Positions 33,964 to 54,669 of a stretch of DNA of 64,000 bases are shown here, piece after piece (position 1 is the first letter of the stretch; every line of letters starts with the position of its first letter). Made by a program: the position numbers and the translations under genes. Source of the stretch: an uncultured Bacteroidota bacterium (GTDB lineage Bacteria; Bacteroidota; Bacteroidia; Bacteroidales; SZUA-534); assembly GCA_946404125.1 (NCBI GenBank), contig CAMJCK010000017.1, positions 349 through 64,348 of the forward strand, read 5' to 3'. Under the pieces are notes generated by a model that saw only the letters and a list, made by a program, of their open reading frames with translations, did no database searches and was not told the origin of the DNA.

Positions 33964-33965
33964 AC

Positions 33966-41778: not shown

Positions 41779-41999
41779 TTATTTTTCTTTTCTCTGATGC
41801 CAATATACTCATCAATATCTTCAAGTATCCACTGACAACTCTGTGTATGCAGTACATCGTAGTTGTCTTCCAGATAACCGAGCACGCCAAATTTGTCGAG
41901 TTTCAGCATAGCCTGCTCGCCAGTCAGTTTTTTGGCATTCTTGTATTGCTCAATGCAGAACGATACAAAATAGGCAATGTCTTGCTCTCTGCTGCTCAT
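41775..41999 (-). CDS. DUF3791-like protein
   Basis: 74 aa. IAYFVSFCIEQYKNAKKLTGEQAMLKLDKFGVLGYLEDNYDVLHTQSCQWILEDIDEYI. Confidence 0.5.
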   Translation of the reverse strand: MSSREQDIAYFVSFCIEQYKNAKKLTGEQAMLKLDKFGVLGYLEDNYDVLHTQSCQWILEDIDEYIGIREKKNK

Positions 42000-42107
42000 A
42001 GTTGGTGTATTATCCGAACACTATTTGTTTTTGCAATTATAGCGATTTTTCATTTTTGATGTTGCATGTCAACTATTGGCCGAGTCCAATTACTCAATGC
42101 ACATAAG

Positions 42108-42194
42108 TCACTCAAACAACAGTGACTGCTCAAGTGCAGTGTCAGATTCGCCAAGCAGTTCGTACATATTATTGAATTGTGCAGAAACATTCAT
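42108..42194 (-). CDS. 28-codon mini-ORF translationally coupled to the 622-aa gene
   Basis: MNVSAQFNNMYELLGESDTALEQSLLFE. Its ATG overlaps the TGA of the upstream gene (ATGA). A homologous truncated copy lies at 44656-44722. Confidence 0.35.
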   Translation of the reverse strand: MNVSAQFNNMYELLGESDTALEQSLLFE

Positions 42195-44059
42195 AATGCG
42201 CAGCCATTTTTATTCCAATTTTCATTCACGTCAGCCCAACAACGGCTTTTAGCAAGAACATTCCATAATTCAGCATTGCCCGACATCAAGAGTGACTTGT
42301 TTGAGATGCGAGTCTTTCCAAGTAGACAGTCTAATGTGTCTAAAATAGTTATGAACGAGAGCACCGATTGGTATTTAAACTCACACCCGCCTTTCCCTTC
42401 CTCATAAATGTCAGCATTCCACTTTTTTATGTAATTGTTGTACATGTCAGCCAAATCGATTGAATCTGCTGATTGAACATTTTTCAGATAATCGGAAATT
42501 ATTAGAGCCTGCATGGCATTATGGCTGTCAACATCTTGAAACTCACGGCTTATACCGAGTTTGCTCTTGTAAGCAACAAACGGTAACGATTCTACCATAT
42601 CATTCACATATTGACGGTAAAAACCTTCTAAATGCTTGAAATCGTCAGCTGAAATCCAATAGCACATCTGGTCGCTACGATTGCAAGTGGCTATTTTTGC
42701 CGCAAAATTGTTCTTCGCATTTTCGAGCATATATCGCAGAGAGTCCATGAAAATTGTTTGAATATCAGAGCGTTTGATATAGGCATATACTTTAATGTTT
42801 TTTGGGCGATTTGGCAAAATCTTTTCGTTGTCCTCTTTCCGAATGTAATATACTTGAACCCAGTATCCCGAATTTACGTTCGCGAGTGATTCCGTCCAAT
42901 AGGAATTACCTTCCGATAGTTTTTTAAGAGACTTGGCAAATTCGTTGCAATCTCGCACAATGCGATTATTCTCGTCAATTTTTTGAAAATACCTGTAAAC
43001 ATCGTAGTGGTCAAAACTAGGCAAAAACCGATTGTATAACATTTTGAGCAAATCGGTTAGCTCCGAGTATTTTCTTGAAGCCTTGTCAAAAGTTTTTCCC
43101 CTGATTCCAAAATTGGGCGATAGTTTTGGAATTTGGTCAGACAAATCGATGGCGTACCTTCTTTTTTCTTCTTCGACGCTTTTGCGGTGTAGTTGCTCTT
43201 TTTTGAATTCCTGCCGTTCAATTTCTTTTCGGCCTTTTGCTATAATATTAGTCCAATCTTTTGAGTCATGTACCAAAGGCGTATAATTGAACTTATATTG
43301 TTTTCCCGCATCAACAATTATATCGCCAAAATCGCCTTTCAAATCGTGTATCTGCGCGGAAAAATATGTATAAGTAATTCTTTTTGAATAATATTCTGTC
43401 TCTTCTGATTCATCGCCGATTTGCAGGAAATAGTCGCAATATTTGTAAATGTCTTCGACCGCAAATTGTCCTAAAAAATCATCCATCTTCTCTGAATAAC
43501 CATTTTGTTGAGCGACAATTTCCAATTGCACAAGATTGTCTATTAAGACAGCAAGTCGGGCGTTTCTGTTGTGGTTCAATATGTTAAGCAGAAGATGCAA
43601 CGAATTAGCCAAATCGTCATTATTGGCAGTTTCCGCAATAATGTCAAGTACCTTCCTATATCTATAATCATCTACGTCAACGCAATCATAGATATATTTA
43701 TAAATATCAGACATTTTGTGTGTTACATATTCCAAAGTCTTTTCATAACCATTAGCATCGAAATCGGAAAAGTCGAGATACAAGACTTGATACCTGTTGA
43801 TTTCTCGCTCAAAAAAGTCCAATCCCGAAACTTGTAGTTTCCCGAAGACACCTTTCGTATCAATATTCTTGTCAAGAAAGCACGCTAATGTCTTCAGGAA
43901 AAACGATGAGCCTGTTCCCGCACAATTGCATAATGTATGATATCCAGGATAGAACAAATACCCGAAACACATGGTCTTGTCAATGTATTTGTCCGTTTTT
44001 AAAAATTCGATTATCTGCGTGTAATTAAGCATAGTAGGCTTTAATTTAGGAAGTTCCAT
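42191..44059 (-). CDS. AAA-ATPase-like (PF09820-type) N-terminal domain protein with a degenerate P-loop and an unassigned C-terminal half
   Basis: 622 aa. KTDKYIDKTMCF matches the YVDKT box of the family. NCAGTGSSFFLKTL sits where the family has RPRRFGKS, and VLYLDFSDF follows. The C-terminal about 350 aa are unassigned. Confidence 0.5.
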   Translation of the reverse strand: MELPKLKPTMLNYTQIIEFLKTDKYIDKTMCFGYLFYPGYHTLCNCAGTGSSFFLKTLACFLDKNIDTKGVFGKLQVSGLDFFEREINRYQVLYLDFSDFDANGYEKTLEYVTHKMSDIYKYIYDCVDVDDYRYRKVLDIIAETANNDDLANSLHLLLNILNHNRNARLAVLIDNLVQLEIVAQQNGYSEKMDDFLGQFAVEDIYKYCDYFLQIGDESEETEYYSKRITYTYFSAQIHDLKGDFGDIIVDAGKQYKFNYTPLVHDSKDWTNIIAKGRKEIERQEFKKEQLHRKSVEEEKRRYAIDLSDQIPKLSPNFGIRGKTFDKASRKYSELTDLLKMLYNRFLPSFDHYDVYRYFQKIDENNRIVRDCNEFAKSLKKLSEGNSYWTESLANVNSGYWVQVYYIRKEDNEKILPNRPKNIKVYAYIKRSDIQTIFMDSLRYMLENAKNNFAAKIATCNRSDQMCYWISADDFKHLEGFYRQYVNDMVESLPFVAYKSKLGISREFQDVDSHNAMQALIISDYLKNVQSADSIDLADMYNNYIKKWNADIYEEGKGGCEFKYQSVLSFITILDTLDCLLGKTRISNKSLLMSGNAELWNVLAKSRCWADVNENWNKNGCAL

Positions 44060-44123
44060 TTCAAAAATGGAAAAGACTTTATTAATATTCTATTAAGAGT
44101 GTGACGAATGAAAAACAGATCAT

Positions 44124-44513
44124 TTACTTGTTTGTTTTAGCTTCGCACCAGTCTACTATTTTATTTGCCGTTTCTGTTCCGATTTTGACTATGACATAAG
44201 ACTTTTCGCCGTCGTAGCTCATTGATAAATGCATTACATTATATCCACTGGTAAGCAATGTAGTCAGTTTTTTGCCTTTTCGCGAAGCTGCCATTTGGTA
44301 GTCTTTGATATCTAACCGACCTTTTTTTGTTTTTTTTATATTTAGTGCGTAATCAAGTGCTATTAAACATCCTGTCCATAATGTATGACCTGCAATCTTT
44401 ATGTATTTTGAATCAATATAATAGTCACCATCTCTGATTGCTCTTTCTTTTAATATTTCATTAGCATCAGATATATGCCTACGTGCTTCTTCTATTGGAT
44501 TTCTCTTTTCCAT
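44124..44513 (-). CDS. DUF5618-like small protein
   Basis: 129 aa from ATG 44513. NPIEEARRHISDANEILKERAIRDGDYYIDSKYIKIAGHTLWTGCLIALDYAL resembles Bacteroides DUF5618 proteins (from memory). Confidence 0.4.
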   Translation of the reverse strand: MEKRNPIEEARRHISDANEILKERAIRDGDYYIDSKYIKIAGHTLWTGCLIALDYALNIKKTKKGRLDIKDYQMAASRKGKKLTTLLTSGYNVMHLSMSYDGEKSYVIVKIGTETANKIVDWCEAKTNK

Positions 44514-44655
44514 TTTTTCAAATTTTGAATATTGAATTTGTTCAGTAGGAAAGACATTCAACCACACAATGATCGGAACTATTTTGAAGTAGCCGTTTTA
44601 TTGCCCACGAGAATAGTTACAATTCCATAAGTGTTTTTTTAATAATTATAATGAG

Positions 44656-44722
44656 TTACTCGAACAATTTTGATTTCTCAAGCGGTAAATCTGATTCGCC
44701 AAGTAGTTTGTTAAAGGCAGAG
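44656..44722 (-). other. Truncated copy of the mini-ORF element, in the +1 frame at the end of the 159-aa ORF
   Basis: Encodes YSAFNKLLGESDLPLEKSKLFE-stop with no start codon. Over the aligned 17 residues, 12 are identical to the 42108-42194 ORF. Confidence 0.45.
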
Positions 44723-45190
44723 TATGTATAGAGCCGAGAGAGCCAGCATTACATTTTTCAGGTTGGCGCGCTGATAGTTCGGAATGCTATTCTCAGGTTC
44801 GTCGATCCTATAATGTTTGACAAGATTGTATTCCTGCCACCACCCAGCGGCAGACTCACTATCGAATCCAGCAAACGGAACCAAATTGATTTTTTCATAG
44901 GGGTATCTTGTGGATACTTTCTGGTTCTTAATCGAAGGTTCATTGTCAACAATTATGGCCATCTTTTGTAATATGTTCTTTGCTTTGGGCGAAGTTTTGA
45001 CAATCTTGCAGTATTCCTCGGCAATAGAATCGACCTCGCTGCAAATATTCAAAAACAAATAAATGTAGCGATGGGAAAATGTCTTGTAGTTGCTTTTGTC
45101 AATAGCAACATATTCTTCCGTTTCAAGAAAATCTTTTTCAAGCAAAAGATACTGTTTCCAGAAGATTTTGGTAAATAATTGTGGTGTCAT
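44711..45190 (-). CDS. Hypothetical protein, possibly HEPN-like
   Basis: 159 aa, all-helical looking. C-terminal GWWQEYNLVKHYR...ANLKNVMLALSALYIL resembles the motif helix region of Abi-type HEPN proteins. Weak assignment. Confidence 0.35.
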   Translation of the reverse strand: MTPQLFTKIFWKQYLLLEKDFLETEEYVAIDKSNYKTFSHRYIYLFLNICSEVDSIAEEYCKIVKTSPKAKNILQKMAIIVDNEPSIKNQKVSTRYPYEKINLVPFAGFDSESAAGWWQEYNLVKHYRIDEPENSIPNYQRANLKNVMLALSALYILCL

Positions 45191-45225
45191 GATTCTGTGT
45201 TTTAGGTTTGTTATTCTGTATTGAA

Positions 45226-45330
45226 CTATACTCTATTAAAATCGCCCGTTACGTTGAGTGGATTTTCGACAAGAAACTGCTCGTTCTGCGAGAATTCCAA
45301 ATGTAAATCGCTGACAAATTGAATGCGCAT
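45226..45330 (-). pseudogene. 5' fragment of a metallophosphoesterase gene (34 codons, then stop)
   Basis: MRIQFVSDLHLEFSQNEQFLVENPLNVTGDFNRV-stop. It carries MPE motif I (D-x-H: SDLHLE) and motif II (GD), then ends. Confidence 0.55.
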
Positions 45331-45432
45331 TGTTTTGTATTGGATTTATGACGGATTATGCTCTGTAATTTAAGTTATTACTACATCATGTATATTGTTC
45401 TTAAAGTCAAATGTGCAACTTGACATTTAATC

Positions 45433-46017
45433 TTAAAAATATCGGAAATACTTGCTGAACAACTTGAAAAACTCACTTTTGCATTTTTCGCGGTAACGCT
45501 CTATTTCCTTTTCGCACTTGCGATACGAATTCCATACTTTGCTGTATTCCTTCCCGTTAACAGGGTCATCTATGGGTGTGTACATCCGAATGCCATCGCT
45601 TTTTTTATCTTCTTCCGTTTGCAACTTCTCACCTAAAAAACCATATTTCTTTTCAAAGATTCTCTCTATTCGGTTCCACTCTTTGTCGTATGGATTTTTC
45701 ATAGAACATTTGTTTTCGTTCATCTCGTCGGCGAGAAAGACCAAATGCTGAATCATATCTAACCAGCGTTTTAAATACATGTAATTTTCTTCGGTACTAA
45801 GAGGTTTGTCAAAACTGATAATATTCCCTTTCTCGTCCAACAAGAAGAATCCTGGAGTCTTTTTTGCCAACTGCTTCAGCATCGGACTGATTGTGTTACA
45901 AAACCAATAATCTATCGATAATACATCGCTGTCGCTGAACCCGCGTTTTGCCCTTTGTTTTGACATTCGCTCTTCATATTCAAAGTCTATTATTTCTCGT
46001 GTGTGCTTTTTCGCCAT
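45433..46017 (-). CDS. Hypothetical protein
   Basis: 194-aa ORF, K/E-rich, with no motif I can assign. Confidence 0.5.
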   Translation of the reverse strand: MAKKHTREIIDFEYEERMSKQRAKRGFSDSDVLSIDYWFCNTISPMLKQLAKKTPGFFLLDEKGNIISFDKPLSTEENYMYLKRWLDMIQHLVFLADEMNENKCSMKNPYDKEWNRIERIFEKKYGFLGEKLQTEEDKKSDGIRMYTPIDDPVNGKEYSKVWNSYRKCEKEIERYREKCKSEFFKLFSKYFRYF

Positions 46018-46073
46018 AGTTGCTAGTATTAAATTGATACTCGGTTAATGCGTTTAAATATAATTCTTTTTAA

Positions 46074-46155
46074 AAAATCGCCCATTAGTGAGTGGTCGGG
46101 TGCGGTCGCAGGTACAACTTCAACTAATGGACTTAATCAGAAAGGCAATGCGCAC
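46074..46155 (-). pseudogene. Second, more decayed copy of the metallophosphoesterase 5' fragment
   Basis: GTGCGCATT... start (versus ATGCGCATT) and ...CCACTCACTAATGGGCGATTTT end (versus CCACTCAACGTAACGGGCGATTTT). The middle has diverged and a stop follows 11 codons in. Confidence 0.3.
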
Positions 46156-46200
46156 CTAAACCATTGGTCATTAACGCATTCTGATTCATTGGTGATTTTA

Positions 46201-46890
46201 TCACAGTTTTTCGTTTTCTTCCATCAGACTTTCGTCGGCAATCATATTAACGGCATTCTCGAGTGAGCCGTAATCGCCAGCCACTACTGCTTGTTTTGTT
46301 TCATAGTTCATTTCGAATTTCAACCGCACACAGCCGTCGTCATAATATTCCGTAAATCCCCAAATTGGGTGGGCGTGCGTAACACCGCCATCGGGATAAA
46401 CATAAAATGCACGGCCATCTTGAAGATAGCACATCTTGCTATTGGCAGGGTTGAAAAACAAAATCAAATCCTTTCCCCACGCCGATTGCCAATCTCTGCC
46501 GTATTTCTTGATAGAGAAAGGAATACCTTGTGCAGTACTATCAATGGCATATATATTGCTTGTCCAAATGACTTTGCCAGTTTTCCCAAAATAATCACCA
46601 CTGCCAGTCAATTTGCCATCGCGGAATGAGAGTTTCACTCCGCCTCCTTTTGAACACAAATCTGCAAAATACTCGTAACAATAATCCAATACTGTGCCAT
46701 CTTCCTCAAATTCAAGATAATCAGCATCAATTAAATGGGAATATTCGGTGGAATAGTGCTTCCAAAGCCTGACCATATCATCGAAACCTTCGCGGGTGGG
46801 TGCGACATCGTAAGTGATTAACCGCAAAGGGTATTCGGTGCGGTTGAGCATTGTCGGAAGGTTGTCGGGGTTGAATTCTTGTGTGCTCAT
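46201..46890 (-). CDS. Hypothetical protein
   Basis: 229-aa ORF, 44 nt downstream of the third phosphoesterase gene. No motif recognised. Confidence 0.55.
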   Translation of the reverse strand: MSTQEFNPDNLPTMLNRTEYPLRLITYDVAPTREGFDDMVRLWKHYSTEYSHLIDADYLEFEEDGTVLDYCYEYFADLCSKGGGVKLSFRDGKLTGSGDYFGKTGKVIWTSNIYAIDSTAQGIPFSIKKYGRDWQSAWGKDLILFFNPANSKMCYLQDGRAFYVYPDGGVTHAHPIWGFTEYYDDGCVRLKFEMNYETKQAVVAGDYGSLENAVNMIADESLMEENEKL

Positions 46891-46935
46891 AGTTATTTGG
46901 TTTTAAGGGTTATACAATGTATTAGCAATTCTCTA

Positions 46936-47811
46936 TTATTTTAAAAAGGCCTCCAACCATTCGTCTATATTTTGGGGCTTTTTCCGACCACGGTGGGTCA
47001 CTTCTTTCCATGGGATTTCGTCGATTAGGGTTGTGTCAAGTAAAGCACCTTTTCTTTCCTTATCATCATTGCTATCGACAACGATAAGGCGGCGGCTGCC
47101 TGATTTAAAAGCGCCCAAACCAATTCGCGTATGTCCGACAACCTGACATTTTATTCGCGGTGGCCAGTTTTTGGCTTCAAACAATGCCCACGGCCTTACC
47201 CATACACAAGACGCATCGTTGCTGCTACCATATACGTCGTCCCCTATAAGGTCGAAATAGGAAATGCCATTCTTTCTGGAATCAAAATCATAATGCATTA
47301 CGAAATTCAAAGATTCAGGATTGAATGAGTTGACGTTTAAAGATTCCCATTTCCGTTCGTTATTAGGCGAAAAACTTTTCTTGCTATTTAATTTAGAAAA
47401 CTGCCCAACCACTCTTTTGTAGAAATCCATTGTCACCCCCGCATGTGAGAACAAACAACCATCAATCAGATAGACAACGTTCAAAATATCGAGATTATCC
47501 CTGAACATTTCCCTGTAATAATTCGCCATGTCGCCGTGGTGCCGCGAGCAATATATAGCATCTCTGCCGCTTGAAATGTAACTCATGTCATGATTGCCAA
47601 GGCAAAGACAGAATTTATCGGGCTCTTTGCGGGCCATCTCGCACAGCATCCAGAAATCATTAACCAGACTGTCGTTATCCAGTCCTTGCTCGTACCCGTC
47701 AGCATAACCACCCAAAACAACCACCTTGTCAACGTGGTCTTTGTGCTCGTTGATTACGCTAAAGGCATCATCAAATTTTCCGTGAATGTCAGGTATTACA
47801 AGAATTTTCAT
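46936..47811 (-). CDS. Calcineurin-like metallophosphoesterase (PPP-like, divergent motif II)
   Basis: LVIPDIHGKFD, VVLGGYADG (where GDxxDRG is expected), CLGNHDMS, VVGHT; 291 aa. Confidence 0.75.
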   Translation of the reverse strand: MKILVIPDIHGKFDDAFSVINEHKDHVDKVVVLGGYADGYEQGLDNDSLVNDFWMLCEMARKEPDKFCLCLGNHDMSYISSGRDAIYCSRHHGDMANYYREMFRDNLDILNVVYLIDGCLFSHAGVTMDFYKRVVGQFSKLNSKKSFSPNNERKWESLNVNSFNPESLNFVMHYDFDSRKNGISYFDLIGDDVYGSSNDASCVWVRPWALFEAKNWPPRIKCQVVGHTRIGLGAFKSGSRRLIVVDSNDDKERKGALLDTTLIDEIPWKEVTHRGRKKPQNIDEWLEAFLK

Positions 47812-48401
47812 CGGTTTTCAGTTTTGCATTGCTTAATAACATTATCTATCTCGGTGAACGATATTGGCTTATAGTCATTATTATCTACCCCGACATCGTA
47901 TTGTGTGGGGAACAGGTGCGCCAAGCGTGGAATATCCTTGCCATACGAGAAATCAGAAGTATGGACGTGCCCGAAGAATTGGTATGTCTTGAACGTGTTG
48001 TAAGTTCCAGCGTAGCAAAGGAACGGGTAATGGTTTAGAATGATTTTCCGATTATCTACAATAATCGACATTTGTTCGGCAACGTTGATAAGATTTTTGT
48101 ATTGGTGGCGACGGTCGAAATACTTGCGGTCGTGGTTTCCCAATACAAGGTGTATGCGGCCGTTGAGTTGGGATAGAATGCCGTCCCACATTTTCACATT
48201 GCCAAAACAGAAGTCGCCCAAATGGAACACAACATCGTCTTTGCCGACGCGGGCATTCCAATTGTCAATCAGCGCCTGGTTCATTGCTTCAACACTGTCG
48301 AACGGGCGGCCATTCATGCGTATTATGGCTTCGTGACAAAAGTGAGTGTCGCTGGTGAACCATACGGGCTGGCCGCTTATTATCATATCGTAGTTCTTCA
48401 T
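47808..48401 (-). CDS. Calcineurin-like metallophosphoesterase (small, Metallophos_2-like)
   Basis: FTSDTHFCH, FHLGDFCFG, VLGNHDR, FFGHVH; 197 aa; 4-nt overlaps with both neighbours. Confidence 0.8.
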   Translation of the reverse strand: MKNYDMIISGQPVWFTSDTHFCHEAIIRMNGRPFDSVEAMNQALIDNWNARVGKDDVVFHLGDFCFGNVKMWDGILSQLNGRIHLVLGNHDRKYFDRRHQYKNLINVAEQMSIIVDNRKIILNHYPFLCYAGTYNTFKTYQFFGHVHTSDFSYGKDIPRLAHLFPTQYDVGVDNNDYKPISFTEIDNVIKQCKTENR

Positions 48402-49204
48402 AGGGCTTTTACGTTTCTGATTTGCATTATGTCGAGCGCGGTGAAATCAATGCTGTCAATAGTGGCTTCGTTGTGCAGGTGAAAGTGCCCATAGAACCAC
48501 TGACGCAGCGGGTGTTTGTCGGCAAGCAAACGCTCGTGTATCTTGTCGATTGTGGTGCGTTCCATCTCGCAGTCGATAAAAAGCGCATTGTCGCGAGCCA
48601 GCCATGACTCTATGCCGTTCTTGTTGGTCGGCACACAGAACGAAGGCGCAGTGTGGGTGACCACAGTGTCAATCGGGATTTGCTGTTGTTGCAGTTCGTC
48701 GAGCAATGCAGGCGAATAGAATGGCGGCTCATCTGGCCAGTAGTAGGTATGGCCATCGGCTGCCTGCCAGTTCTTGCGAACGCGGCGGTCAATGCTGATT
48801 GCACCACCAACGCACAGCACATTATGCCCACAACAGCGGACAACGGTGTAATCGGGTATTATCAGGAATCCGTCAGCCGCTTGCCGTTGCTCTGTAAACC
48901 ATGCAGGGTCGTCGTGGTTGCCGCGCAGCATCACCACCGTTACGTTATGCTTGCGAAGTTGCTGGCCGCAATGTTTCAGTTCGTTTTCATAGTATTTGGG
49001 CGAGTGGAACCCAAACCCACAATCGCCTGCAACAATCACTACGGCGTTGTTAAGGTTGTATTTGCTGCATATAGTGAACACCAACGTGCGGAACTCACCG
49101 TGAATGTCGCCGCAAACAAGTAAGTGTTCGGCGTTCGGGAAGTCTGCCGTTTCTAGGTGACGGTTATCGGGATTGTTCAGATAGTATTCGGTCATAATAT
49201 TCAA
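48398..49204 (-). CDS. Calcineurin-like metallophosphoesterase (PPP-like)
   Basis: LLVCGDIHGEF, VIVAGDCGFG, LRGNHDDP, VVTHTAP, YGHFH; 268 aa. Confidence 0.8.
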   Translation of the reverse strand: MNIMTEYYLNNPDNRHLETADFPNAEHLLVCGDIHGEFRTLVFTICSKYNLNNAVVIVAGDCGFGFHSPKYYENELKHCGQQLRKHNVTVVMLRGNHDDPAWFTEQRQAADGFLIIPDYTVVRCCGHNVLCVGGAISIDRRVRKNWQAADGHTYYWPDEPPFYSPALLDELQQQQIPIDTVVTHTAPSFCVPTNKNGIESWLARDNALFIDCEMERTTIDKIHERLLADKHPLRQWFYGHFHLHNEATIDSIDFTALDIMQIRNVKAL

Positions 49205-49225
49205 ACATTTGAAATGGTGGAAAAT

Positions 49226-50680
49226 TCAGAAGTTATACTCAATATTGTTGATATATTCCAATAATCGGCTGTTACGTTTTTCTTTGTAATCATCACCTGT
49301 ATATCCACCATTGATTATGATGTCGAGCATTGAAGTTAGGTTACTATATTTAGTGTTGCATTTGTATTTGCCTTGAAAAACCAAACTTCGTGTGTACTTG
49401 AATATGTTGAACGAATAATAGTCATCAATTGTAATGCAAATAATTCCATCGAATACGATGCCTGAAACTTGCATGACGTATGCCGGAGTTTTAATCGCGT
49501 AACCAGGTCCTTCAAATTCAGCCTTTGCTATGAGGAAGGTGCGTTCAATGTTCCATCTCTTATTCCAATCATTTCCCTCACCATAAATACATTTATCAAT
49601 GTCTTGGTATGTATTATTCAATTCTGCTTCATATATATCAGTTTCATAACTCAAACCAACATGGAAAATCCTACGTATATCATAATCAGCATCGAATATC
49701 TCATCGCATAATTCAGGTGTCATTCTCCCAATTCGCTTCGATATGTCTTCAGCCAACTCAAAAGTTCTTGGTATGTAACCATAATTTCTTTTTATGTATT
49801 GGTTTACAAGCTCTTTTACGGCCAACAACAATTCCGTTTCATATTTTGGTTTGCAGATATTAGCACAATAATCCCAATCATGACCTATGGTGAGCACATA
49901 TTCCGCTTTTAAACCAATTCTAGCCGAATTCGGGGTGTTGTTTCCGTTTTTCTCCGATTTGAATAAAAACTTAATATCATTTTCATCAATCTTTTTCATT
50001 AATTCCACATTTACATCTATGTTTTGCCCATCAACACTAAACGTCAACACAAGACCGAATGTCTCGTAAGTATTATTGTAATAGTTCAAACTAACCTTTT
50101 TAAGGCCCCACAGAGACAAGGCATCAACACTCAAAACCTCAACTATACTTTTCCATTTTTTGCAAAATTTTTTTATTACAGATTGCGACAGTTTGGTCGG
50201 CTTGATTGTACCATAAAACGTTTTTAGCACATTGGGATAGAAATATGTCCAATCAACTTTTCTGTCGCAGGATGAGTCGAGCAAAATATATTTGCCATCA
50301 ATCGAAAATCGTAATTTAGTTTTCAGTTCGTTGTAAATAGATGTTATCCGAAATGTGGCTATCCCAAATTTTGAAAGAGATGCGTCATCAAAAACTCTTA
50401 AATTAATCGGTCTGCCATCATCCTCATAACGGATAGTGATTTCGTAGCATTTGAGTTCGTTAATTGTTGTGGCAAATTTTTCAAAATCAGCATCAGCCAT
50501 TCCAACTTCTTCTTTCAAAAGATTGATGGCGGAAATGTTATATTTCATATTTTGGACTAACACTCGCTTCACTATTCTTTCGCGCAAAGTGTCTTCAGGC
50601 AGATGATTCACCCAGTCGGTGTTGTCGTGCTCTGCGAATTCAATTGCTTCTGGCATCTCTTCATAATCGGTGTTGCTCAT
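49226..50680 (-). CDS. Hypothetical protein, first gene of the phosphoesterase operon
   Basis: About 484 aa from ATG 50680 (the track start 50725 is also possible). No motif recognised. 21 nt upstream of the first phosphoesterase gene. Confidence 0.55.
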   Translation of the reverse strand: MSNTDYEEMPEAIEFAEHDNTDWVNHLPEDTLRERIVKRVLVQNMKYNISAINLLKEEVGMADADFEKFATTINELKCYEITIRYEDDGRPINLRVFDDASLSKFGIATFRITSIYNELKTKLRFSIDGKYILLDSSCDRKVDWTYFYPNVLKTFYGTIKPTKLSQSVIKKFCKKWKSIVEVLSVDALSLWGLKKVSLNYYNNTYETFGLVLTFSVDGQNIDVNVELMKKIDENDIKFLFKSEKNGNNTPNSARIGLKAEYVLTIGHDWDYCANICKPKYETELLLAVKELVNQYIKRNYGYIPRTFELAEDISKRIGRMTPELCDEIFDADYDIRRIFHVGLSYETDIYEAELNNTYQDIDKCIYGEGNDWNKRWNIERTFLIAKAEFEGPGYAIKTPAYVMQVSGIVFDGIICITIDDYYSFNIFKYTRSLVFQGKYKCNTKYSNLTSMLDIIINGGYTGDDYKEKRNSRLLEYINNIEYNF

Positions 50681-50956
50681 AGTTGTTTTTTTATTGGTTT
50701 CGTGCTGACAAAAATAACAAATCAAGCCTCAAAAAACAAATAAAAATAGAGTTTAATTTATTGATATTTAATGAGTTAACTATGGGTATGGTCAGATTTC
50801 TCCTGCAGCAAATATATTGGCAGAAACAAGTTTGGTTTTACATTTTTTTAAGTGTGGTCAGTCATCAGGTTAATTGTCAGGTTAATAGGCGTTGAAAAAA
50901 GTCTTTAACATTGTAATTATAGTGGATATTGTTAACTATATTTGCCATGAAATTGA

Positions 50957-52099
50957 ATGATAATGAAAGACGAAAGATTTTGGGAACAAGATGTTAATTG
51001 GGATAATATTTTCGGCCACGGGATACCAGACTTTGATTTTTATGATATAGACTGGTCGTTTAAAAAGCCCTTTAAATCAAGTTCGTGGTTGGAAGGATAT
51101 TATTATGAACTATCATATTGTATTATAGGCAATAATTATGATGAATCAGATGATTTTTGTGATTTTGTCAATGATTTTACAGAAGGGATAGTCAAAGAAA
51201 TAAAAGTCTTTTTGGACGCTTTCATTCAGTCAAACATAAACAAAGGCAATAGTACCAGTACAATTTTCACGAAATTTATTGATATATCCAGTTTCTTGCC
51301 ACAGATTGTTGAGTGCAGCGAACCATTCCCTTACATAGAAAACGACTTGTCAAAAGCACTTCATCGTTGGGAAGATTTTATGTTAAATGATTCTCCGAAA
51401 CCATCACGAAAGTGGGAACTATCAAAAAGACAATTACATAAACAGTGGCTGCCGCCTGAATTTCCATTAAAGCCATCGTCAATCCGCCGCAAGGCGCAGT
51501 CAGTCAAAGCATTTTGCGGATTTCTTTGCCAATATTATGGATTTCATTTTGGAGATTATCAATCATTCCCAGACTACAGCCGGCCGGTTTACAAACAGTC
51601 GCGCAATAACCGTCAGATTACATATGATATCGAAGAGATAGTTAAGAAAATCCCTGTCGGCAGGGAACCTTCCAAAGCATTCATTGGTTACCGTGACAAG
51701 GCGATAATTCTGGCCATAGGCAATATTGGGCTTTCTGTTTCTGAACTGATTGATTTAAACACATCAGATATTGATTGGGACAAATCACTCATTATAGGCA
51801 CAAAACGAGCCCACCCAATCATTGACGAAGATACCCGCCAGGCTATGCGGAAATACTTTGGCATTTGCAGAGAAAAATATGCCAATCACGAAAAATTCTT
51901 TCTGACATCCAAAGGCGAACCGATTTCAAGGGTGAGCGTTTTCAAAATCGTGAAAGAACGTTCAAAACAGGCTGGTTACAATCACATTAATCCACAGATG
52001 CTGCGTGAAACTTTTAAAAAACGCTTGATAAAACGATATCAGAAATCAGAGGCGGCAAAAAGGTTGGGAATAAAAAGGTTGTATAACAGGGATTTGTGA
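50957..52099 (+). CDS. Divergent tyrosine-recombinase-like protein
   Basis: The C-terminal half resembles a phage-integrase catalytic domain (GLSVSELIDLNTSDI, PQMLRETFKKRL, LGIKRLYNRD), but the box-I Arg appears replaced (GLSVSE versus GLRxSE). Confidence 0.5.
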   Translation: MIMKDERFWEQDVNWDNIFGHGIPDFDFYDIDWSFKKPFKSSSWLEGYYYELSYCIIGNNYDESDDFCDFVNDFTEGIVKEIKVFLDAFIQSNINKGNSTSTIFTKFIDISSFLPQIVECSEPFPYIENDLSKALHRWEDFMLNDSPKPSRKWELSKRQLHKQWLPPEFPLKPSSIRRKAQSVKAFCGFLCQYYGFHFGDYQSFPDYSRPVYKQSRNNRQITYDIEEIVKKIPVGREPSKAFIGYRDKAIILAIGNIGLSVSELIDLNTSDIDWDKSLIIGTKRAHPIIDEDTRQAMRKYFGICREKYANHEKFFLTSKGEPISRVSVFKIVKERSKQAGYNHINPQMLRETFKKRLIKRYQKSEAAKRLGIKRLYNRDL

Positions 52100-52142
52100 A
52101 GAATCTGATTATTGTTCGCACTTTTCCGTTGAAATAGTATTG

Positions 52143-52772
52143 TTATTGCATTCTTTTCCCTTTTTCACTTCTTAAAGAAAGATTGACATCCACTAATGCT
52201 GATTCTATATTTTTCAGAATTTGTATTTGCTCATTATTTAAAGTTGGATTCTCTTCTTTGTTAATGTTTAAATAATGTGCTATTTGATTTATGTTATTAC
52301 CGATTTTTGCTAATTGAAATATTAATTCGCCCAGATTTTTGTCCTCAGTCAGTATAGTAATTTTTTTATCCAGAATTCTTGCTCGTAAATATGCATTGAA
52401 GTCTCTACTCCTTGTTTTTTCCGCTTCTGTCTTTAATTTCTCATATTCTCTTTCTGTAAAACATATTGTTTTTTTCTTGTTCCTTTTCTCTTCCTCTTCA
52501 ATCGGAGGTCTTCCTCCTAATCGTTTTACATACAACTGAAACTGCAGGAGCAACTTTTTCTTATTCTCAACAGACCACTTTACTCTTTCTTTTGTTGACC
52601 AGTTGAGTCCGTAGTAATAATCTATTTCTCCCGTTCCTGTTATCTCAGTAATATCACTTACGAATGTCTTTGGCAGGACACAGTCTTCATCAATTTTGGA
52701 AATCTTGAATCCGTAATCATTGTACGCAATATCATCAGATTTGATTTTGCCAATATGCTTTACTTTTCCCAT
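52143..52772 (-). CDS. MobC-family mobilisation (relaxosome accessory) protein with an N-terminal extension
   Basis: GGRPP...ICFTEREYEKLKTEAEKTRSRDFNAYLRARIL and LAKIGNNINQIAHYLN (MobC signature); 209 aa. Confidence 0.7.
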   Translation of the reverse strand: MGKVKHIGKIKSDDIAYNDYGFKISKIDEDCVLPKTFVSDITEITGTGEIDYYYGLNWSTKERVKWSVENKKKLLLQFQLYVKRLGGRPPIEEEEKRNKKKTICFTEREYEKLKTEAEKTRSRDFNAYLRARILDKKITILTEDKNLGELIFQLAKIGNNINQIAHYLNINKEENPTLNNEQIQILKNIESALVDVNLSLRSEKGKRMQ

Positions 52773-53222
52773 AACCTTATAATTAAAAAAAACGACGGAA
52801 CGGAGTTCTTTTTCTTTTTTTTATTCCTTGCCACCAGCAGTAACAAAGATAATCAAATTTCTGTGGAACGGAAATTTCAAGGGAAGTTTTGGTTGTACCA
52901 AAACACACCTTGCTATCCGAAAAGATTGTTATTTTATTTATTCGAAAATGCATACAAAAACAGTGTAAAAATTTGGAATGGAAGGGAAGAAATTCGGTAG
53001 TTATTTAATCAATATTCCAAGGATTCACAATTGCCAATCGTTTAATGCCTATCTTCCCAATGAGTACTTTACTCCCTTCCATATAGTTACAAATGAAAGG
53101 GAGAAAAAATCTTATCCCGCTCTGGCTCTTTCCCTACTGTCTATCGTAGTTTTGGCGCCTTGAGCAAATAAGTATCGGTGGGGGACAGCGCCACAATTAA
53201 TCTTGCCTGGTTTCCACCCTTA

Positions 53223-53350
53223 GTTTACATATTATATTATATATTTATATATCAATATGTTATATATGTAAACGTGGTTTACAGGGTTTACAGTTTATCA
53301 TTGTATATTGCTAATACACAATAATATACGGTTGTAAACCTACTTTACAG
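53223..53350. repeat. Cluster of GGTTTACA / TGTAAACC 8-mers (right part of island, at the integrase 3' end)
   Basis: GTTTACA 53223, TGTAAAC 53267, GGTTTACA 53276 and 53285, TGTAAACC 53333, CTTTACAG 53343. Confidence 0.85.
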
Positions 53351-54620
53351 AGAGGAACCCGTTGTAGCATTGCATACTCTTTTCGCGAGCATTATCTAAT
53401 ATATCGATATACGGTTTCATCGCTTTATACGAGCTATGCCCGGTCCAATCCATTATCACCTGTGGTTGAATGCCCATGGAAAGGCCTAGAATAACAAAAG
53501 TTCGGCGTGCAGCGTGAGTTCCAATCAACTCGTATTTGGGTGGGTAAGAATCAATGCGCTGATGCCCAATAATTTGCGTTCTAGGCACGGGTGCAGTTAT
53601 GCCCGCCATTTTCGCTATTATTTTTAAATCAACATTCATTTTTTGATTCGAAATAACGGGAAGTGCTTTATTATTTTTTGTTGGATAATCTTTGTATTTG
53701 TTTAGTATAAAAGATGTTATATCGTTTAATGGAATTGTTATTTGGTCCGTTGTTTTAATTGTGGTTAAATCAATTTGCCCATTCCATATGTTTTCCCTTC
53801 TCAAATTTCGCGCGTCGCTGTATCGGATTCCACTGAAACAGCAAAAAACGAATACATCACGTACTTGCTCGAGATGCTTTTGCGTGCGGTCAAATTCCAA
53901 ATTCCACAGGGCTTTTAACTCTTCGGGTTCCAAAAACACTGGTTTATTGTGAGGCGATTCAAGTTTGGGGTCAAACGTTTCAAAATCAGTGATATTATGG
54001 TATCCTTTCTTGTTTGCCCACCTTAAGAACCATTTAAGGAAACCTAAATTCTTTTTTATTGTTGAATTTTTCATTTTGACATCATCCATAAGATACTTTA
54101 CATATTTGCCAAGTCCATATTCGTTGAAATCTTCGAATGTTGGTTTGGTTTTATAATTGATTATGTGCTTTCCTAATGCGGCAAACTTTTCATGAGTTGC
54201 GGGAGTCCAGTTCCGCTCGAAGCCTTTTTTTTCGATGAATTCATCATAAATAGACAGCAGAGAGCGTGGCATCGAGAGTTTTGTAGAGTTATTGCCATTA
54301 GGATTACGCAATGCGTAATAATCATTGCGCAAATTTTCTGGGCGCGGGATGCTGCCTTTTTTCTCCCACTTGAGCAAAATAGATTCGATGTCTTTCTTCA
54401 TTTTCGCGAGGCGAGTGTTTACTTCGTGTGCTTGGCGGGCTTCATCAACACTGTTGCCGGACTTAAGAATCATCGTTTTTGTGTTCCACCGTTTTGTGGG
54501 AACGTTTATTCCTGTTGAGAATAATACTCTGTTTCCTGCATAAGTGACTACCATGTTAAGACGTGCGTTTTCTGCATCTTTGTACTTGGGATCTAACAAA
54601 AATCTAATGTTTTCTTTCAT
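53340..54620 (-). CDS. Tyrosine site-specific integrase (Bacteroides type)
   Basis: 426 aa. FSGIRYSDARNL (Arg I), GTHAARRTF (H-x-x-R), WTGHSSYKAMKPYIDI (His/Tyr). 165 nt from the right att repeat. Confidence 0.9.
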   Translation of the reverse strand: MKENIRFLLDPKYKDAENARLNMVVTYAGNRVLFSTGINVPTKRWNTKTMILKSGNSVDEARQAHEVNTRLAKMKKDIESILLKWEKKGSIPRPENLRNDYYALRNPNGNNSTKLSMPRSLLSIYDEFIEKKGFERNWTPATHEKFAALGKHIINYKTKPTFEDFNEYGLGKYVKYLMDDVKMKNSTIKKNLGFLKWFLRWANKKGYHNITDFETFDPKLESPHNKPVFLEPEELKALWNLEFDRTQKHLEQVRDVFVFCCFSGIRYSDARNLRRENIWNGQIDLTTIKTTDQITIPLNDITSFILNKYKDYPTKNNKALPVISNQKMNVDLKIIAKMAGITAPVPRTQIIGHQRIDSYPPKYELIGTHAARRTFVILGLSMGIQPQVIMDWTGHSSYKAMKPYIDILDNAREKSMQCYNGFLSVK

Positions 54621-54650
54621 AATTCTGAATTTTTTAAAAAGTTGATAATT

Positions 54651-54669
54651 TGCTTACATTTTGATTACA
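54651..54669 (+). repeat. End-proximal repeat (right copy)
   Basis: TGCTTACATTTTGATTACA, matching 17334-17353 apart from one T. Confidence 0.8.

What the first reader, a model, noticed from the sequence alone, without database searches (positions are those of the whole stretch)
45433..50725. Tightly packed operon with three different calcineurin-like phosphoesterases and unknown proteins
Seen, order on the minus strand:
- an unknown protein of about 484-499 aa
- 21-nt gap, then MPE 268 aa (GDIHG, GD, GNHD, GHFH)
- 4-nt overlap, then MPE 197 aa (DTHFCH, GDF, GNHD, GHVH)
- 4-nt overlap, then MPE 291 aa (PDIHG, degenerate GGYADG, GNHD)
- 44-nt gap, then an unknown 229-aa protein, and further downstream an unknown 194-aa protein

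The three MPEs are not recent duplicates; their motif contexts differ.

Established: this superfamily includes protein phosphatases, class III cyclic-nucleotide phosphodiesterases and nucleases.

Inference: a multi-enzyme module either degrades nucleotide second messengers (defence or counter-defence signalling) or acts on phosphorylated targets. I know of no described system with this composition.
Basis: partly seen in the sequence, partly recalled or inferred. Interest (0 to 1): 0.65.

Follow-up and report, generated by a model that had tools for sequence, protein, structure and literature searches.

The report
Orphan gene plus three phosphoesterases
A rare, conserved operon on a mobile island of a rumen or gut Bacteroidales bacterium pairs a protein of unknown kind with up to three different metal-dependent phosphoesterases. 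Their relatives sit next to tRNA-poisoning toxins in bacteria and among RNA-repair genes in phages, so the operon more likely undoes phosphate-linked damage than destroys signalling nucleotides.

Summary
Six tightly packed minus-strand genes include three intact-length Metallophos genes from three different branches.

- **Setting:** the operon lies in a 37.5-kb island inserted in tRNA-Ser, next to an integrase, a MobC-like gene and a second tyrosine recombinase.
- **Conserved unit:** recombinase (divergent), a 484-aa orphan (U484) and MPE-A. MPE-B and MPE-C are an optional pair. The 229-aa gene is swappable cargo, and the 194-aa gene is a separate, promiscuous mobile-element gene.
- **U484:** four clades in billions of proteins, with no detectable fold or family.
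- **MPE-A:** Dbr1/Mre11/GpdQ-like. In 34 of 72 Bacteroidales loci it is translationally coupled behind an AbiEii-type nucleotidyltransferase toxin; elsewhere it follows HipA or Fic. In phages it lies among RNA ligases, a kinase-phosphatase and a CCA-adding enzyme.
- **MPE-C:** PP1-like. The window copy has lost the metal-bridging Asp (D35G), unlike 19 relatives checked.
- **Best reading (about 0.4):** a phosphoester-reversal or RNA-end-healing battery in the toxin/abortive-infection conflict.
second-messenger degradation is not excluded but gained no support.
- **Status:** no function was shown here, and I found no description of this system.

The parts
49226..50680 (-). U484: orphan 484-aa protein, first gene of the operon and the invariant partner of MPE-A
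   Evidence: - Only 7 homolog clusters in 5.8e9 proteins.
- Three full-length clades among 1.84e9 representatives, and a fourth clade at 26% identity in L183.
- No Pfam, PADLOC, PHROG, NCBIfam or PDB hit, even with a profile.
- AF2 model pLDDT 45, with no significant fold match.
- No profile similarity to AbiEii, HipA, Fic or the other MPE-A partners.
- The first ~47 aa are nearly identical between clades that share 31% identity overall. The DNA homology breakpoint is at about 50540.
- dN/dS 0.29-0.36.
48398..49195 (-). MPE-A: 265-aa metallophosphoesterase with all five motifs intact (GDIHG, GD, GNHD, H, GHFH); Dbr1/Mre11/GpdQ-like
   Evidence: - Pfam Metallophos 4e-12; phrog_1649 4e-22.
- AF2 pLDDT 88.
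- Foldseek PDB top hits: Dbr1 at E 1e-9 and TM 0.53, then GpdQ, Rv0805, LpxH and Mre11.
- BFVD top hit: a phage protein auto-named 'RNA lariat debranching enzyme', TM 0.71-0.76.
- Present in every locus that has U484.
- The family has at least 2360 clusters.
47808..48401 (-). MPE-B: 197-aa small metallophosphoesterase (DTHFCH, GD, GNHD, H, GHVH); optional member
   Evidence: - Metallophos_2 9e-8; phrog_547 7.5e-48.
- Its only PDB relative is Aquifex aq_1665 (1xm7), 5e-13, of unknown function.
- More than 526 relatives in IMG/VR.
- Reduced to a 65-aa in-frame deletion remnant in L343 and L345.
- Absent in L004, L020/L182 and L183.
46936..47811 (-). MPE-C: 291-aa PPP(PP1)-like phosphoesterase; this copy carries D35G and V37A in motif II and is probably catalytically dead
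   Evidence: - Metallophos 1e-11.
- The family profile hits PP1 and PP2A catalytic subunits at 2e-7 and weaker, over motifs I-IV.
- GAT>GGT and GTT>GCT substitutions are seen only in the window. All 7 orthologous loci and 12 cluster members keep GDYVDG.
46201..46890 (-). U229: last gene of the transcription unit; exchangeable cargo, not a core member
   Evidence: - No family or PDB hit.
- Its 90% cluster has 3 members.
- It sits in a slot bounded by conserved DNA at about 46874 and 46190.
- In relatives that slot holds a 346-aa gene with or without others (137, 221, 186 aa, or 102 and 66 aa). In L343-L346, U229 follows the 346-aa gene.
46071..46130 (-). Terminator-like hairpin (CCATTAGT...ACTAATGG) followed by a T-run, ending the operon
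   Evidence: Read directly from the sequence. The generic terminator scan did not list it, because its loop is long. This is an inference.
50681..50956 (.). Divergent promoter region between the recombinase and U484, with a Bacteroidetes -7 box TAttTTTG at 50716-50709
   Evidence: - Sequence.
- The region is conserved at 83-94% in relatives even where the U484 body is replaced.
- No convincing invertible-promoter repeats or iterons.
50957..52099 (+). Tyrosine recombinase (380 aa), always divergently adjacent to U484
   Evidence: - Phage_integrase 9e-13.
- A 38-91% identical recombinase sits in the same position in every locus that reaches that far.
45433..46017 (-). U194: separate downstream gene, not part of the module
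   Evidence: - 183-nt gap and hairpin upstream.
- The family of 73 clusters occurs alone between ATPase genes, in an FtsK/DnaB element, and in a RecA/SecY element, all without MPEs.
17282..54802 (.). The host element: a 37.5-kb island in tRNA-Ser bounded by an 18-bp direct repeat (17282-17299 and 54785-54802)
   Evidence: - tRNA-Ser(tga) at 17213-17298.
- The repeat AATCCCTCTCTCTCCGCA.
- Integrase at 53340-54620 and MobC/NikA at 52143-52772.
- Cargo: type I RM, Schlafen/AlbA_2, DUF3990 (PDC-M13B) and helicases.

Best explanation
The operon is accessory cargo of a tRNA-Ser-integrated, mobilizable Bacteroidales island.

**Core and optional members.** The core is an orphan, fast-evolving protein (U484) obligately paired with MPE-A, a Dbr1/Mre11-like phosphodiesterase. 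Two further esterases can be added: the small aq_1665-type MPE-B and the PP1-type MPE-C.

**Proposed function.** I propose that the enzymes hydrolyse the phosphoester products of translation-targeting toxins and RNases. Candidate substrates are:
- nucleotides added to tRNA 3' ends by AbiEii/MenT-type nucleotidyltransferases;
- 2',3'-cyclic or 3'-phosphate RNA ends;
- possibly phospho- or nucleotidyl-groups on proteins.

The proposed division of labour is diesterases (MPE-A, MPE-B) followed by a monoesterase (MPE-C). In other genomes the monoesterase slot is filled by a SAK-HAD phosphatase. The module would then reset or heal the translation apparatus during toxin-antitoxin and abortive-infection conflict.

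**Shown here:** gene content, conservation, mosaicism, the fold class of MPE-A, the family class of MPE-C, and the genomic associations.

**Inferred:** every substrate, the direction of the effect (protective), and any role for U484. My guess for U484 is a specificity or targeting subunit whose conserved N-terminus docks onto the conserved enzymes.
For: 1. **Coupling to toxins.** MPE-A relatives are the last, translationally coupled gene behind AbiEi/AbiEii-like pairs in 34 of 72 evaluable GTDB loci. The junctions are -4 or -1 overlaps or 2-4-nt gaps, across four divergent nucleotidyltransferase clusters. Others follow HipB-HipA (gap -1) or RhuM-Fic/DOC (gap -4).

2. **Same island as AbiE.** The same AbiE allele (DUF6577 + AbiEii, 88-100% identical) lies in the same island in every U484 locus that has MPE-B/C, except the window and L180/181. 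It is never present where MPE-B/C are missing. In L344 the order is U484-A-B-C-346-229-AbiEi-AbiEii, all on one strand.

3. **Phage RNA-repair clusters.** In phages L109-L145, MPE-A and MPE-B relatives lie within a cluster of two RNA ligases, an HD+P-loop kinase, a CCA-adding enzyme, a 3'-5' exoribonuclease and YqeY. MPE-C-like genes lie within 8 kb of an RNA ligase in 26 of 79 phage loci.

4. **Interchangeable third enzyme.** L080 and L094 carry an MPE-A, HAD_SAK_2, MPE-B operon. HAD_SAK_2 (PF18143, 5e-26) is the stand-alone RNA-repair 3'-phosphatase family (PMC7824862).

5. **Fold and family.** The MPE-A fold is nearest to enzymes that cut phosphodiesters in RNA, DNA or nucleotides, not to PPP protein phosphatases. 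MPE-C is PPP-like. In my recollection, that branch also includes the phosphatase domain of bacterial Pnkp.

6. **Literature.** AbiEii/MenT toxins extend tRNA 3' ends (PMC10435456, PMC11541572).
Against: - The operon has no RNA ligase or polynucleotide kinase, so it cannot be a complete break-repair pathway.
- The window's island has no AbiE at all, and its MPE-C has lost a catalytic Asp.
- All associations rest on gene proximity. Many phage loci come from related phages in one sample, so the counts are not independent.
- The AbiE versus MPE-B/C correlation covers 11 configurations, with one-sided Fisher p = 0.06.
- TM-scores to Dbr1 and Mre11 are modest (about 0.5), and the MPE fold is generic.
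- HipA and Fic partners modify proteins, not RNA.
- U484 remains entirely uncharacterised.
- The island otherwise carries defence systems, which fits a defence role as well as a protective one.
Confidence: 0.4

Rival explanations
1. A new toxin/abortive-infection-type defence module in which the esterases switch an effector on rather than repair damage. U484 would be the sensor or effector. Alternatively, the co-resident AbiEii would be the effector, kept inert by phosphorylation. MPE-C (PP1-like) and/or MPE-A would remove the inhibitory phosphate when a phage or plasmid is sensed.
For: - AbiEii and MenT toxins are neutralised by antitoxin-induced autophosphorylation. They are reactivated in vitro by a Ser/Thr phosphatase, and the in vivo phosphatase is unknown (bioRxiv 10.64898/2026.01.19.700257; PMC11375011).
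- From my own knowledge, not checked here: HipA is likewise autophosphorylated.
- MPE-A relatives are coupled to exactly these toxins.
- The module sits in a defence island with type I RM, DUF3990/PDC-M13B and Schlafen.
- U484 shows allele replacement and a higher dN/dS than the enzymes, as sensors often do.
Against: - The MPE-A fold is closer to phosphodiesterases than to protein phosphatases.
- Phages carry relatives of all three MPEs in RNA-repair neighbourhoods. That is hard to reconcile with an enzyme whose job is to arm a host toxin.
- There is no kinase or nucleotidyltransferase in the window's island.
- No PADLOC hit.
Confidence: 0.2
2. One reading: a battery of phosphodiesterases that degrades nucleotide second messengers (cyclic mono-, di- or oligonucleotides, or ADP-ribose-derived signals), as counter-defence for the mobile element.
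For: - MPE-A structural neighbours include the cyclic-nucleotide phosphodiesterase Rv0805 and the promiscuous diesterase GpdQ.
- Dbr1-like chemistry (2'-5' bonds) could in principle fit 2'-5'-linked signals.
- Calcineurin-like phosphodiesterases of jumbo phages have been predicted to counter signalling nucleotides (PMC7824862).
- One phage locus has NAMPT next to an MPE-A relative.
- The operon lies close to the MobC/integrase end of a transferable element.
Against: - No cyclase-based system or effector is linked to any of the three families in about 340 loci inspected.
- The recurrent partners are tRNA- and translation-directed toxins and RNA-repair enzymes.
- U484 is absent from phages.
- MPE-C is PP1-like, not phosphodiesterase-like.
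Confidence: 0.15
3. MPE-A is a nuclease effector (Mre11/SbcD-like) that degrades invading DNA or RNA. U484 would be its targeting partner, and MPE-B and MPE-C would be auxiliary.
For: - Weak sequence matches to SbcD and Mre11 around motifs II-III, with Mre11 among the Foldseek hits.
- Defence-island setting.
- U484 diversification.
Against: - U484 has no detectable ATPase or SMC-like domain in any family or profile search.
- The SbcD similarity is confined to generic motifs.
- MPE-A relatives are widespread in phages, and they sit behind toxins that already supply an effector.
Confidence: 0.1
4. Element housekeeping: U484 is a replication or transfer protein of the island, and the esterases are unrelated passengers.
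For: - Position next to the recombinase, MobC and integrase.
- The best (non-significant) fold matches of the poor U484 model are VirB8/NTF2-like conjugation proteins and RepE-type initiators.
Against: - The model is unreliable (pLDDT 45), and the matches have E > 0.04 and TM <= 0.15.
- There are no iterons or repeats near the gene.
- The 4-nt overlaps and the invariant U484/MPE-A pairing argue for a functional unit.
Confidence: 0.05

Closest known systems
AbiE / MenAT nucleotidyltransferase toxin-antitoxin systems (type IV, recently reclassified type VII)
   Same: - MPE-A's closest relatives are the third, translationally coupled gene of AbiEi-AbiEii-like operons in Bacteroidales.
- The same island family usually carries an AbiE pair within a few kb of the MPE operon.
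- Phosphoester chemistry (tRNA nucleotidylation, toxin phosphorylation) is central to these systems.
   Different: - The window's island has no AbiEi or AbiEii.
- U484 is unrelated to them (hhalign probability < 4%).
- Described AbiE/MenAT systems have two genes and no dedicated esterase.
Phage and bacterial RNA-repair cassettes (T4 Pnkp + Rnl; bacterial Pnkp/Hen1; SAK-HAD-containing cassettes of Burroughs and Aravind)
   Same: - Several phosphoesterases with complementary specificity sit in one operon.
- Relatives of MPE-A, MPE-B and MPE-C lie beside RNA ligases, a kinase-HD protein, a CCA-adding enzyme and SAK-HAD.
- A PPP-like esterase as the end-healing enzyme recalls the phosphatase domain of bacterial Pnkp (my recollection, not tested).
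   Different: - There is no ligase, kinase or methyltransferase in this operon or island.
- There is an extra orphan protein.
- It is carried on an integrative island rather than a phage.
Lambda NinI / PP-lambda and bacterial PPP-family phosphatases (PrpA/B, ApaH)
   Same: MPE-C shares the GDxHG / GDxxDxG / GNH[DE] / HxG / GHT motif pattern, and its profile hits PP1.
   Different: - Only a weak, partial hit of MPE-A (not MPE-C) to the NinI phrog (9e-5).
- No prophage context.
- The window copy lacks the motif-II Asp.
Counter-defence nucleotide phosphodiesterases (Acb1, Apyc1, predicted T5 A1-like calcineurin-type enzymes)
   Same: They are mobile-element-borne hydrolases of phosphodiester bonds with a presumed role in conflict.
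   Different: - Acb1 (2H fold) and Apyc1 (metallo-beta-lactamase fold) are different folds, by my own knowledge.
- No signalling-system partner was seen for these MPE families.
- No sequence relation was tested or found.
Dbr1 RNA lariat debranching enzyme / Mre11-SbcD nucleases
   Same: They are the best structural neighbours of MPE-A: the same binuclear MPE core, acting on nucleic-acid phosphodiesters.
   Different: - TM is only about 0.4-0.55 and identity 10-15%.
- MPE-A lacks the Dbr1 C-terminal domain and any SbcC/Rad50 partner.

Membership tests
Calcineurin-like metallophosphoesterase superfamily (Pfam Metallophos / Metallophos_2) | Profile match above the gathering score | tested here: met
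   MPE-A scores 47.4 bits, MPE-B 32.7 and 30.8 bits, and MPE-C 45.8 bits, against cut-offs of 21.5 and 27.
Calcineurin-like metallophosphoesterase superfamily | Five metal-binding motifs: DxH, GD, GNH[DE], H, GHxH or GH | tested here: inconclusive
   MPE-A and MPE-B have all five motifs. The window's MPE-C lacks the motif-II Asp (GGYADG), whereas 19 relatives have GDYVDG.
PPP-type Ser/Thr phosphatases (PP1 / PP-lambda / NinI) | Sequence-profile relation to PPP catalytic cores over motifs I-IV | tested here: met
   The MPE-C family profile hits PP1 at 2e-7 to 5e-6 and PP2A at 3e-3, over residues 3-130. This holds for MPE-C only; MPE-A and MPE-B do not hit. No protein-phosphatase activity was tested.
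Prophage NinI-like phosphatase | Full-length match to the NinI family (phrog_246) and a prophage nin-region context | tested here: not met
   Only MPE-A residues 10-99 match, at 9e-5. The host element is an integrative island without phage structural genes.
Class III cyclic-nucleotide phosphodiesterase (CpdA / Rv0805) | Specific sequence or structure relation to CpdA/Rv0805 beyond the generic MPE core | tested here: inconclusive
   Rv0805 is among the Foldseek hits (E 6e-6, TM 0.45-0.52) but ranks below Dbr1. There is no sequence-level hit.
SbcCD / Mre11-Rad50 nuclease | An MPE nuclease subunit with an SMC-like ATPase partner encoded alongside | tested here: not met
   SbcD hits reach 19 bits against cut-offs of 77-450. 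There is no ATPase gene in the operon, and U484 has no detectable domain.
Known anti-phage defence systems (PADLOC-DB v2) | A match of any operon protein to a system model | tested here: not met
   No hit for U484, MPE-A, MPE-B, MPE-C or U194. U229 gave only a 0.01 chance-level hit.
RNA-repair cassette (Pnkp/Hen1, Pnkp+Rnl, RtcAB) | An RNA ligase and/or polynucleotide kinase in the same operon | tested here: not met
   None is present in the window's operon or island. They occur only beside phage relatives.
AbiE/MenAT toxin-antitoxin system | An AbiEi-type antitoxin and a DUF1814/AbiEii nucleotidyltransferase | tested here: not met
   No AbiEii or DUF6577 homolog was found anywhere in the 64-kb window by tblastn. 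Both are present in the sister islands.

The most novel reading that the evidence does not exclude
The MPE-A family would be the missing dedicated esterase of AbiE/MenT-type (and HipA- or Fic-type) toxin systems in Bacteroidales. It would either trim toxin-added nucleotides from tRNA 3' ends or strip the inhibitory phosphate from the toxin. The U484-MPE operon would be a free-standing, mobile version of that function, paired with a new, rapidly diversifying specificity protein. In effect this would be a previously unrecognised three-or-more-component layer of toxin control that phages have also captured for counter-defence.
Probability: 0.25. Interest if true: 0.75.

Novelty: new variant of a known kind. 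Interest (0 to 1): 0.55.

Why it matters
Three reasons, in decreasing order of weight.

1. **An open question becomes testable.** Recent work shows that AbiEii/MenT tRNA-nucleotidyltransferase toxins are silenced by phosphorylation. That work asks which phosphatase re-arms them, and how cells recover from tRNA 3'-end damage. A phosphoesterase family that is translationally coupled to these toxins in dozens of Bacteroidales species, and that phages place among tRNA and RNA repair genes, is an obvious and testable candidate for either role.

2. **A new kind of operon.** The operon in this window would be the first case in which that enzyme is teamed with two further esterases and an orphan partner on a transferable island.

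3. **A mobile function.** This would suggest that phosphoester reversal is a mobile, selectable function in gut and rumen Bacteroidales.

If instead the enzymes turn out to degrade signalling nucleotides, the module would be a new multi-enzyme counter-defence set.

Tried and rejected
- **Invertible promoter.** I looked for one between the recombinase and U484, as in Bacteroides phase variation. Only short A/T-rich inverted repeats turned up. Rejected.
- **Integron-like cassette sites.** No repeated attC-like sequence flanks the variable slot.
- **U484 as a replication initiator.** There are no iterons, and the fold matches are not significant.
- **U484 as a cryptic AbiEii, HipA, Fic, AAA, ligase or kinase protein.** hhalign probabilities are all below 4%.
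- **Structure of U484.** The alignment is too shallow (8 sequences), giving pLDDT 45.
- **DNA similarity of the operon to phage and plasmid records.** No match.
- **U484 in IMG/VR.** None found.
- **Rfam search of 44000-55200.** Nothing.
- **U194 as a module member.** Rejected, because its family occurs in unrelated contexts.
- **Literature.** No paper links AbiE, or any defence system, with this MPE arrangement.
- As a result the 346-aa gene, U229 and U159 have no deep search.

Full report
**1. The observation**

Three corrections apply.

- The first gene starts at the ATG at 50680 (484 aa), not the TTG at 50725. Every homolog begins MSNTDYEE/MxNT. A Bacteroidetes-type -7 box, TAttTTTG at 50716-50709, lies inside the supposed extension.
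- MPE-A is 265 aa in database copies, starting from the ATG at 49195.
- The gaps are: 30 nt (or 21 nt from the TTG); a 4-nt overlap; a 4-nt overlap; 45 nt; then 183 nt containing a hairpin plus T-run.

All three MPEs pass Pfam Metallophos thresholds. All genes are under purifying selection, with dN/dS of 0.07-0.14 for MPE-A and MPE-B, 0.11 for MPE-C in the deep comparison, and 0.29-0.36 for U484.

**2. The setting**

- An 18-bp direct repeat, AATCCCTCTCTCTCCGCA, lies at 17282-17299 (the 3' end of tRNA-Ser) and again at 54785-54802. It delimits a 37.5-kb island.
- At the attR end lie a Bacteroidetes-type integrase (53340-54620), a MobC/NikA-like protein (52143-52772) and a second tyrosine recombinase (50957-52099, + strand). 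The recombinase is divergent from the operon.
- The rest of the island is defence-type cargo:
  - an AAA-ATPase_like protein;
  - DUF5618;
  - DUF3990 (PADLOC candidate PDC-M13B, 3e-62);
  - a 1121-aa ResIII helicase with a 604-aa partner;
  - a type I RM system with two HsdM genes;
  - a Schlafen/AlbA_2 protein;
  - a helicase with DUF2726.
- Identical or near-identical proteins are recorded from Salinivirgaceae (Bacteroidales) MAGs of rumen and gut origin. There they are annotated only as 'hypothetical protein' and 'metallophosphoesterase'.

**3. What is conserved**

U484 has seven homolog clusters in 5.8 billion proteins. It has three full-length clades among 1.84 billion representatives. 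A fourth clade, at 26% identity, appears in one metagenome contig. It is absent from IMG/VR, and it occurs in only 2 of the species representatives scanned in GTDB.

Across about 20 contigs, or about 11 distinct configurations:

- The invariant unit is recombinase (divergent), U484 and MPE-A.
- MPE-B and MPE-C come together, in the window, L001, L016-19, L021, L180/181 and L344.
- They are missing from L004, L020/182 and L183.
- They also decay: MPE-B is a 65-aa in-frame deletion remnant in L343/345.
- One cluster member has D8G in MPE-C motif I.
- The window's MPE-C has D35G and V37A in motif II, whereas 19 relatives keep GDYVDG.

The DNA comparison shows mosaic blocks with breakpoints at about 50540, 49197, 46874 and 46190:

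- The body of U484 is replaced wholesale between islands, while its promoter and first ~47 codons stay conserved.
- The slot after MPE-C holds different genes. U229 fills it here. Most relatives carry a 346-aa gene, with or without 137-, 221-, 186- or 229-aa genes. One clade carries 102- and 66-aa genes.

U194 belongs to a 73-cluster family that also occurs alone or in unrelated elements. It is therefore not part of the module.

**4. What the enzymes are**

| Enzyme | Motifs | Nearest relatives |
|---|---|---|
| MPE-A | All five intact | AF2 pLDDT 88. Foldseek PDB: Dbr1 (E 1e-9, TM 0.53), then GpdQ, Rv0805, LpxH, Mre11; PPP phosphatases are not near the top. BFVD: phage proteins auto-named 'RNA lariat debranching enzyme' (TM 0.71-0.76). 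|
| MPE-B | All five intact | phrog_547 (7.5e-48) and Aquifex aq_1665 (1xm7), both of unknown function |
| MPE-C | Motif-II Asp lost in this copy | Family profile hits PP1/PP2A catalytic cores (2e-7) |

The operon therefore combines two diesterase-like enzymes and one PPP-like enzyme.

U484 gave nothing in Pfam, PADLOC, PHROGs or NCBIfam, or in PDB sequence searches with a profile. AlphaFold2 gave a poor model, and fold search and hhalign against the other MPE-A partners found nothing.

**5. What the relatives keep company with**

This is the main new evidence.

(a) *MPE-A in bacterial genomes.* MPE-A has at least 2360 homolog clusters.
- GTDB species representatives gave 365 confirmed hits, almost all in Bacteroidales.
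- Of 72 evaluable loci, 34 have an AbiEii-type nucleotidyltransferase immediately upstream on the same strand, usually preceded by an AbiEi-like gene.
- These nucleotidyltransferases fall in four divergent clusters. One hits Pfam AbiEii at 2e-48; three hit it weakly.
- The junctions are -4 or -1 overlaps or 2-4-nt gaps.
- Other upstream partners are HipB-HipA (gap -1), RhuM-Fic/DOC (gap -4), an AAA ATPase, and a helicase with DUF2726. A few copies sit beside housekeeping genes.

(b) *A parallel three-esterase operon.* L080 and L094 carry MPE-A, HAD_SAK_2 and MPE-B. The middle gene is the 'Swiss-army-knife' RNA-repair HAD phosphatase (5e-26). This parallels the window's MPE-A, MPE-B, MPE-C with a different monoesterase. 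L048 combines MPE-C-like, MPE-A-like and a SAK-HAD-like gene.

(c) *MPE-A and MPE-B in phages.* In one group of large phages (L109, L112, L114, L120, L124, L126, L145), their relatives sit in a cluster with two RNA ligases, an HD+AAA_33 kinase, a CCA-adding enzyme, an Rv2179c-like 3'-5' exoribonuclease and YqeY.

(d) *Wider phage counts.*
- MPE-B has more than 526 relatives in IMG/VR. Of 80 loci examined, 35 have YqeY nearby and 13 have SAK-HAD.
- MPE-C-like genes have 108 relatives. Of 79 loci examined, 26 lie within 8 kb of an RNA ligase.
- Many of these phages are related to one another, so the counts overstate independence.

(e) *AbiE within the U484 island family.* The same AbiE pair (DUF6577 + AbiEii) is present in every configuration that has MPE-B/C, except the window and L180/181. 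It is present in none that lack them (6/2/0/3; one-sided Fisher p = 0.06). In L344 it follows directly on the same strand.

**6. Literature**

- MenT and AbiEii toxins add nucleotides to tRNA 3' ends (PMC10435456, PMC11541572).
- They are neutralised by antitoxin-induced autophosphorylation and can be re-armed in vitro by a Ser/Thr phosphatase. The in vivo phosphatase is explicitly stated to be unknown (PMC11375011; bioRxiv 10.64898/2026.01.19.700257).
- Jumbo-phage comparative genomics predicts calcineurin-like esterases either as counter-nucleotide enzymes or as RNA-repair phosphatases. It describes SAK-HAD as a stand-alone RNA-repair phosphatase (PMC7824862).
- I found no paper linking AbiE, or any defence or anti-defence system, with this MPE family or with a triple-MPE operon.

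**7. Interpretation**

The best-supported reading is that these esterases work on the phosphoester chemistry of the translation-directed toxin conflict. They would trim or heal RNA (tRNA) ends, and perhaps remove phosphate or nucleotide groups from proteins. U484 would be a diversifying partner of MPE-A.

I put this at about 0.4, because every step from gene neighbourhood to substrate is inference. In addition, the operon has no ligase or kinase, the window's island has lost AbiE, and its MPE-C is probably dead.

The rivals are:

- **Toxin switch (0.2).** The esterases arm a toxin or effector as part of a defence system. This uses the same associations.
- **Second-messenger degradation (0.15).** It remains possible but found no specific support.
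- **Nuclease-effector model (0.1).**
- **Element-housekeeping model (0.05).**

**8. Verdict**

- The finding is real and the module is conserved but rare.
- Its composition is undescribed, its function unknown, and its orphan protein opaque.
- It is best filed as a new variant within conflict-associated phosphoesterase and RNA-repair-like modules.
- The more general by-product may be of wider interest than the window's own, partly decayed, copy: a phosphoesterase family translationally coupled to AbiEii, HipA and Fic toxins across Bacteroidales.

Noticed in passing
L022-L099 (e.g. L024:6602-8800, L056, L084): Three-gene operons of AbiEi-like, AbiEii-like nucleotidyltransferase and an MPE-A-family phosphoesterase occur in 34 of 72 Bacteroidales species loci. 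The junctions are -4/-1 overlaps or 2-4-nt gaps, across four divergent nucleotidyltransferase clusters. I found no description of these operons in the literature I could search. The esterase is a candidate for the unknown enzyme that re-arms or reverses AbiEii/MenT toxins.
   Followed up: partly
L031:587-2958; L098:747-2599; L089: The same MPE-A family also follows HipB-HipA (gap -1) and RhuM-Fic/DOC (gap -4). These are toxins that phosphorylate or AMPylate translation factors.
   Followed up: partly
L080:447-2543; L094:1446-3533: An operon of MPE-A-like, HAD_SAK_2 (RNA-repair 'Swiss-army-knife' phosphatase) and MPE-B-like genes. It is a second kind of three-esterase operon, without U484.
   Followed up: partly
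L109, L112, L114, L120, L124, L126, L145 (IMG/VR contigs of 100-350 kb): A phage RNA/tRNA-repair cluster holds two RNA ligases, an HD+P-loop kinase, a CCA-adding enzyme, an Rv2179c-like exoribonuclease, YqeY and a radical-SAM protein, plus MPE-A and MPE-B relatives and a conserved unknown protein of about 260 aa (cluster c14).
   Followed up: partly
window 17282-17299 and 54785-54802: An 18-bp direct repeat at the 3' end of tRNA-Ser(tga) and beside the integrase defines a 37.5-kb integrative island. No relaxase gene was recognised in it, only a MobC/NikA-like accessory protein.
   Followed up: yes
window 53223-53345: Several copies of GTTTACA/TGTAAAC, including a perfect 10-nt inverted repeat (53223-53232 and 53264-53273), lie in the 567-nt non-coding stretch between the integrase and MobC. 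They may be integrase arm sites or an oriT.
   Followed up: no
window 35636-40796 (also L004, L020, L182, L001): A 1121-aa ResIII-type helicase-like protein overlaps a 604-aa protein with no domain hit. The pair is conserved at 94-100% in sister islands and lies directly upstream of two tandem hsdM genes (33966-35495 and 32431-33969), hsdS and, further on, hsdR. It may be a separate defence module.
   Followed up: no
window 41287-41778: A DUF3990 protein matches the PADLOC candidate PDC-M13B (3e-62). Sister islands carry DUF3791 and a HicB-like gene nearby (L343), which are absent here.
   Followed up: no
L180:10001-11452; L343:6503-6700; P0229: There are signs of decay in sister copies. One has an in-frame TGA in U484 (L180). 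MPE-B is reduced to a 65-aa in-frame deletion product in L343/L345. One MPE-C copy has D8G in motif I (P0229).
   Followed up: yes
L007/L008:1699-12160: U194 homologs sit in a tandemly duplicated cassette (a 146-aa gene, an 826-aa LRR_5 protein, the 197-aa U194 homolog and an FtsK-like ATPase) in a Salinivirgaceae element that also carries RtcB and a DnaB_C protein.
   Followed up: no
L010-L012: A distant U194 homolog (286 aa) lies in a long same-strand gene array that includes RecA, SecY, SecE, SecG, a microbial PARG and a signal peptidase. This may be a very large phage or an unusual mobile element.
   Followed up: no
window vs L021: Synonymous divergence differs about eight-fold between adjacent genes of the operon in the same pair of islands: dS is 0.05 for MPE-C, 0.12 for U484, and 0.38-0.44 for MPE-A and MPE-B. 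This shows recombination inside the operon.
   Followed up: partly
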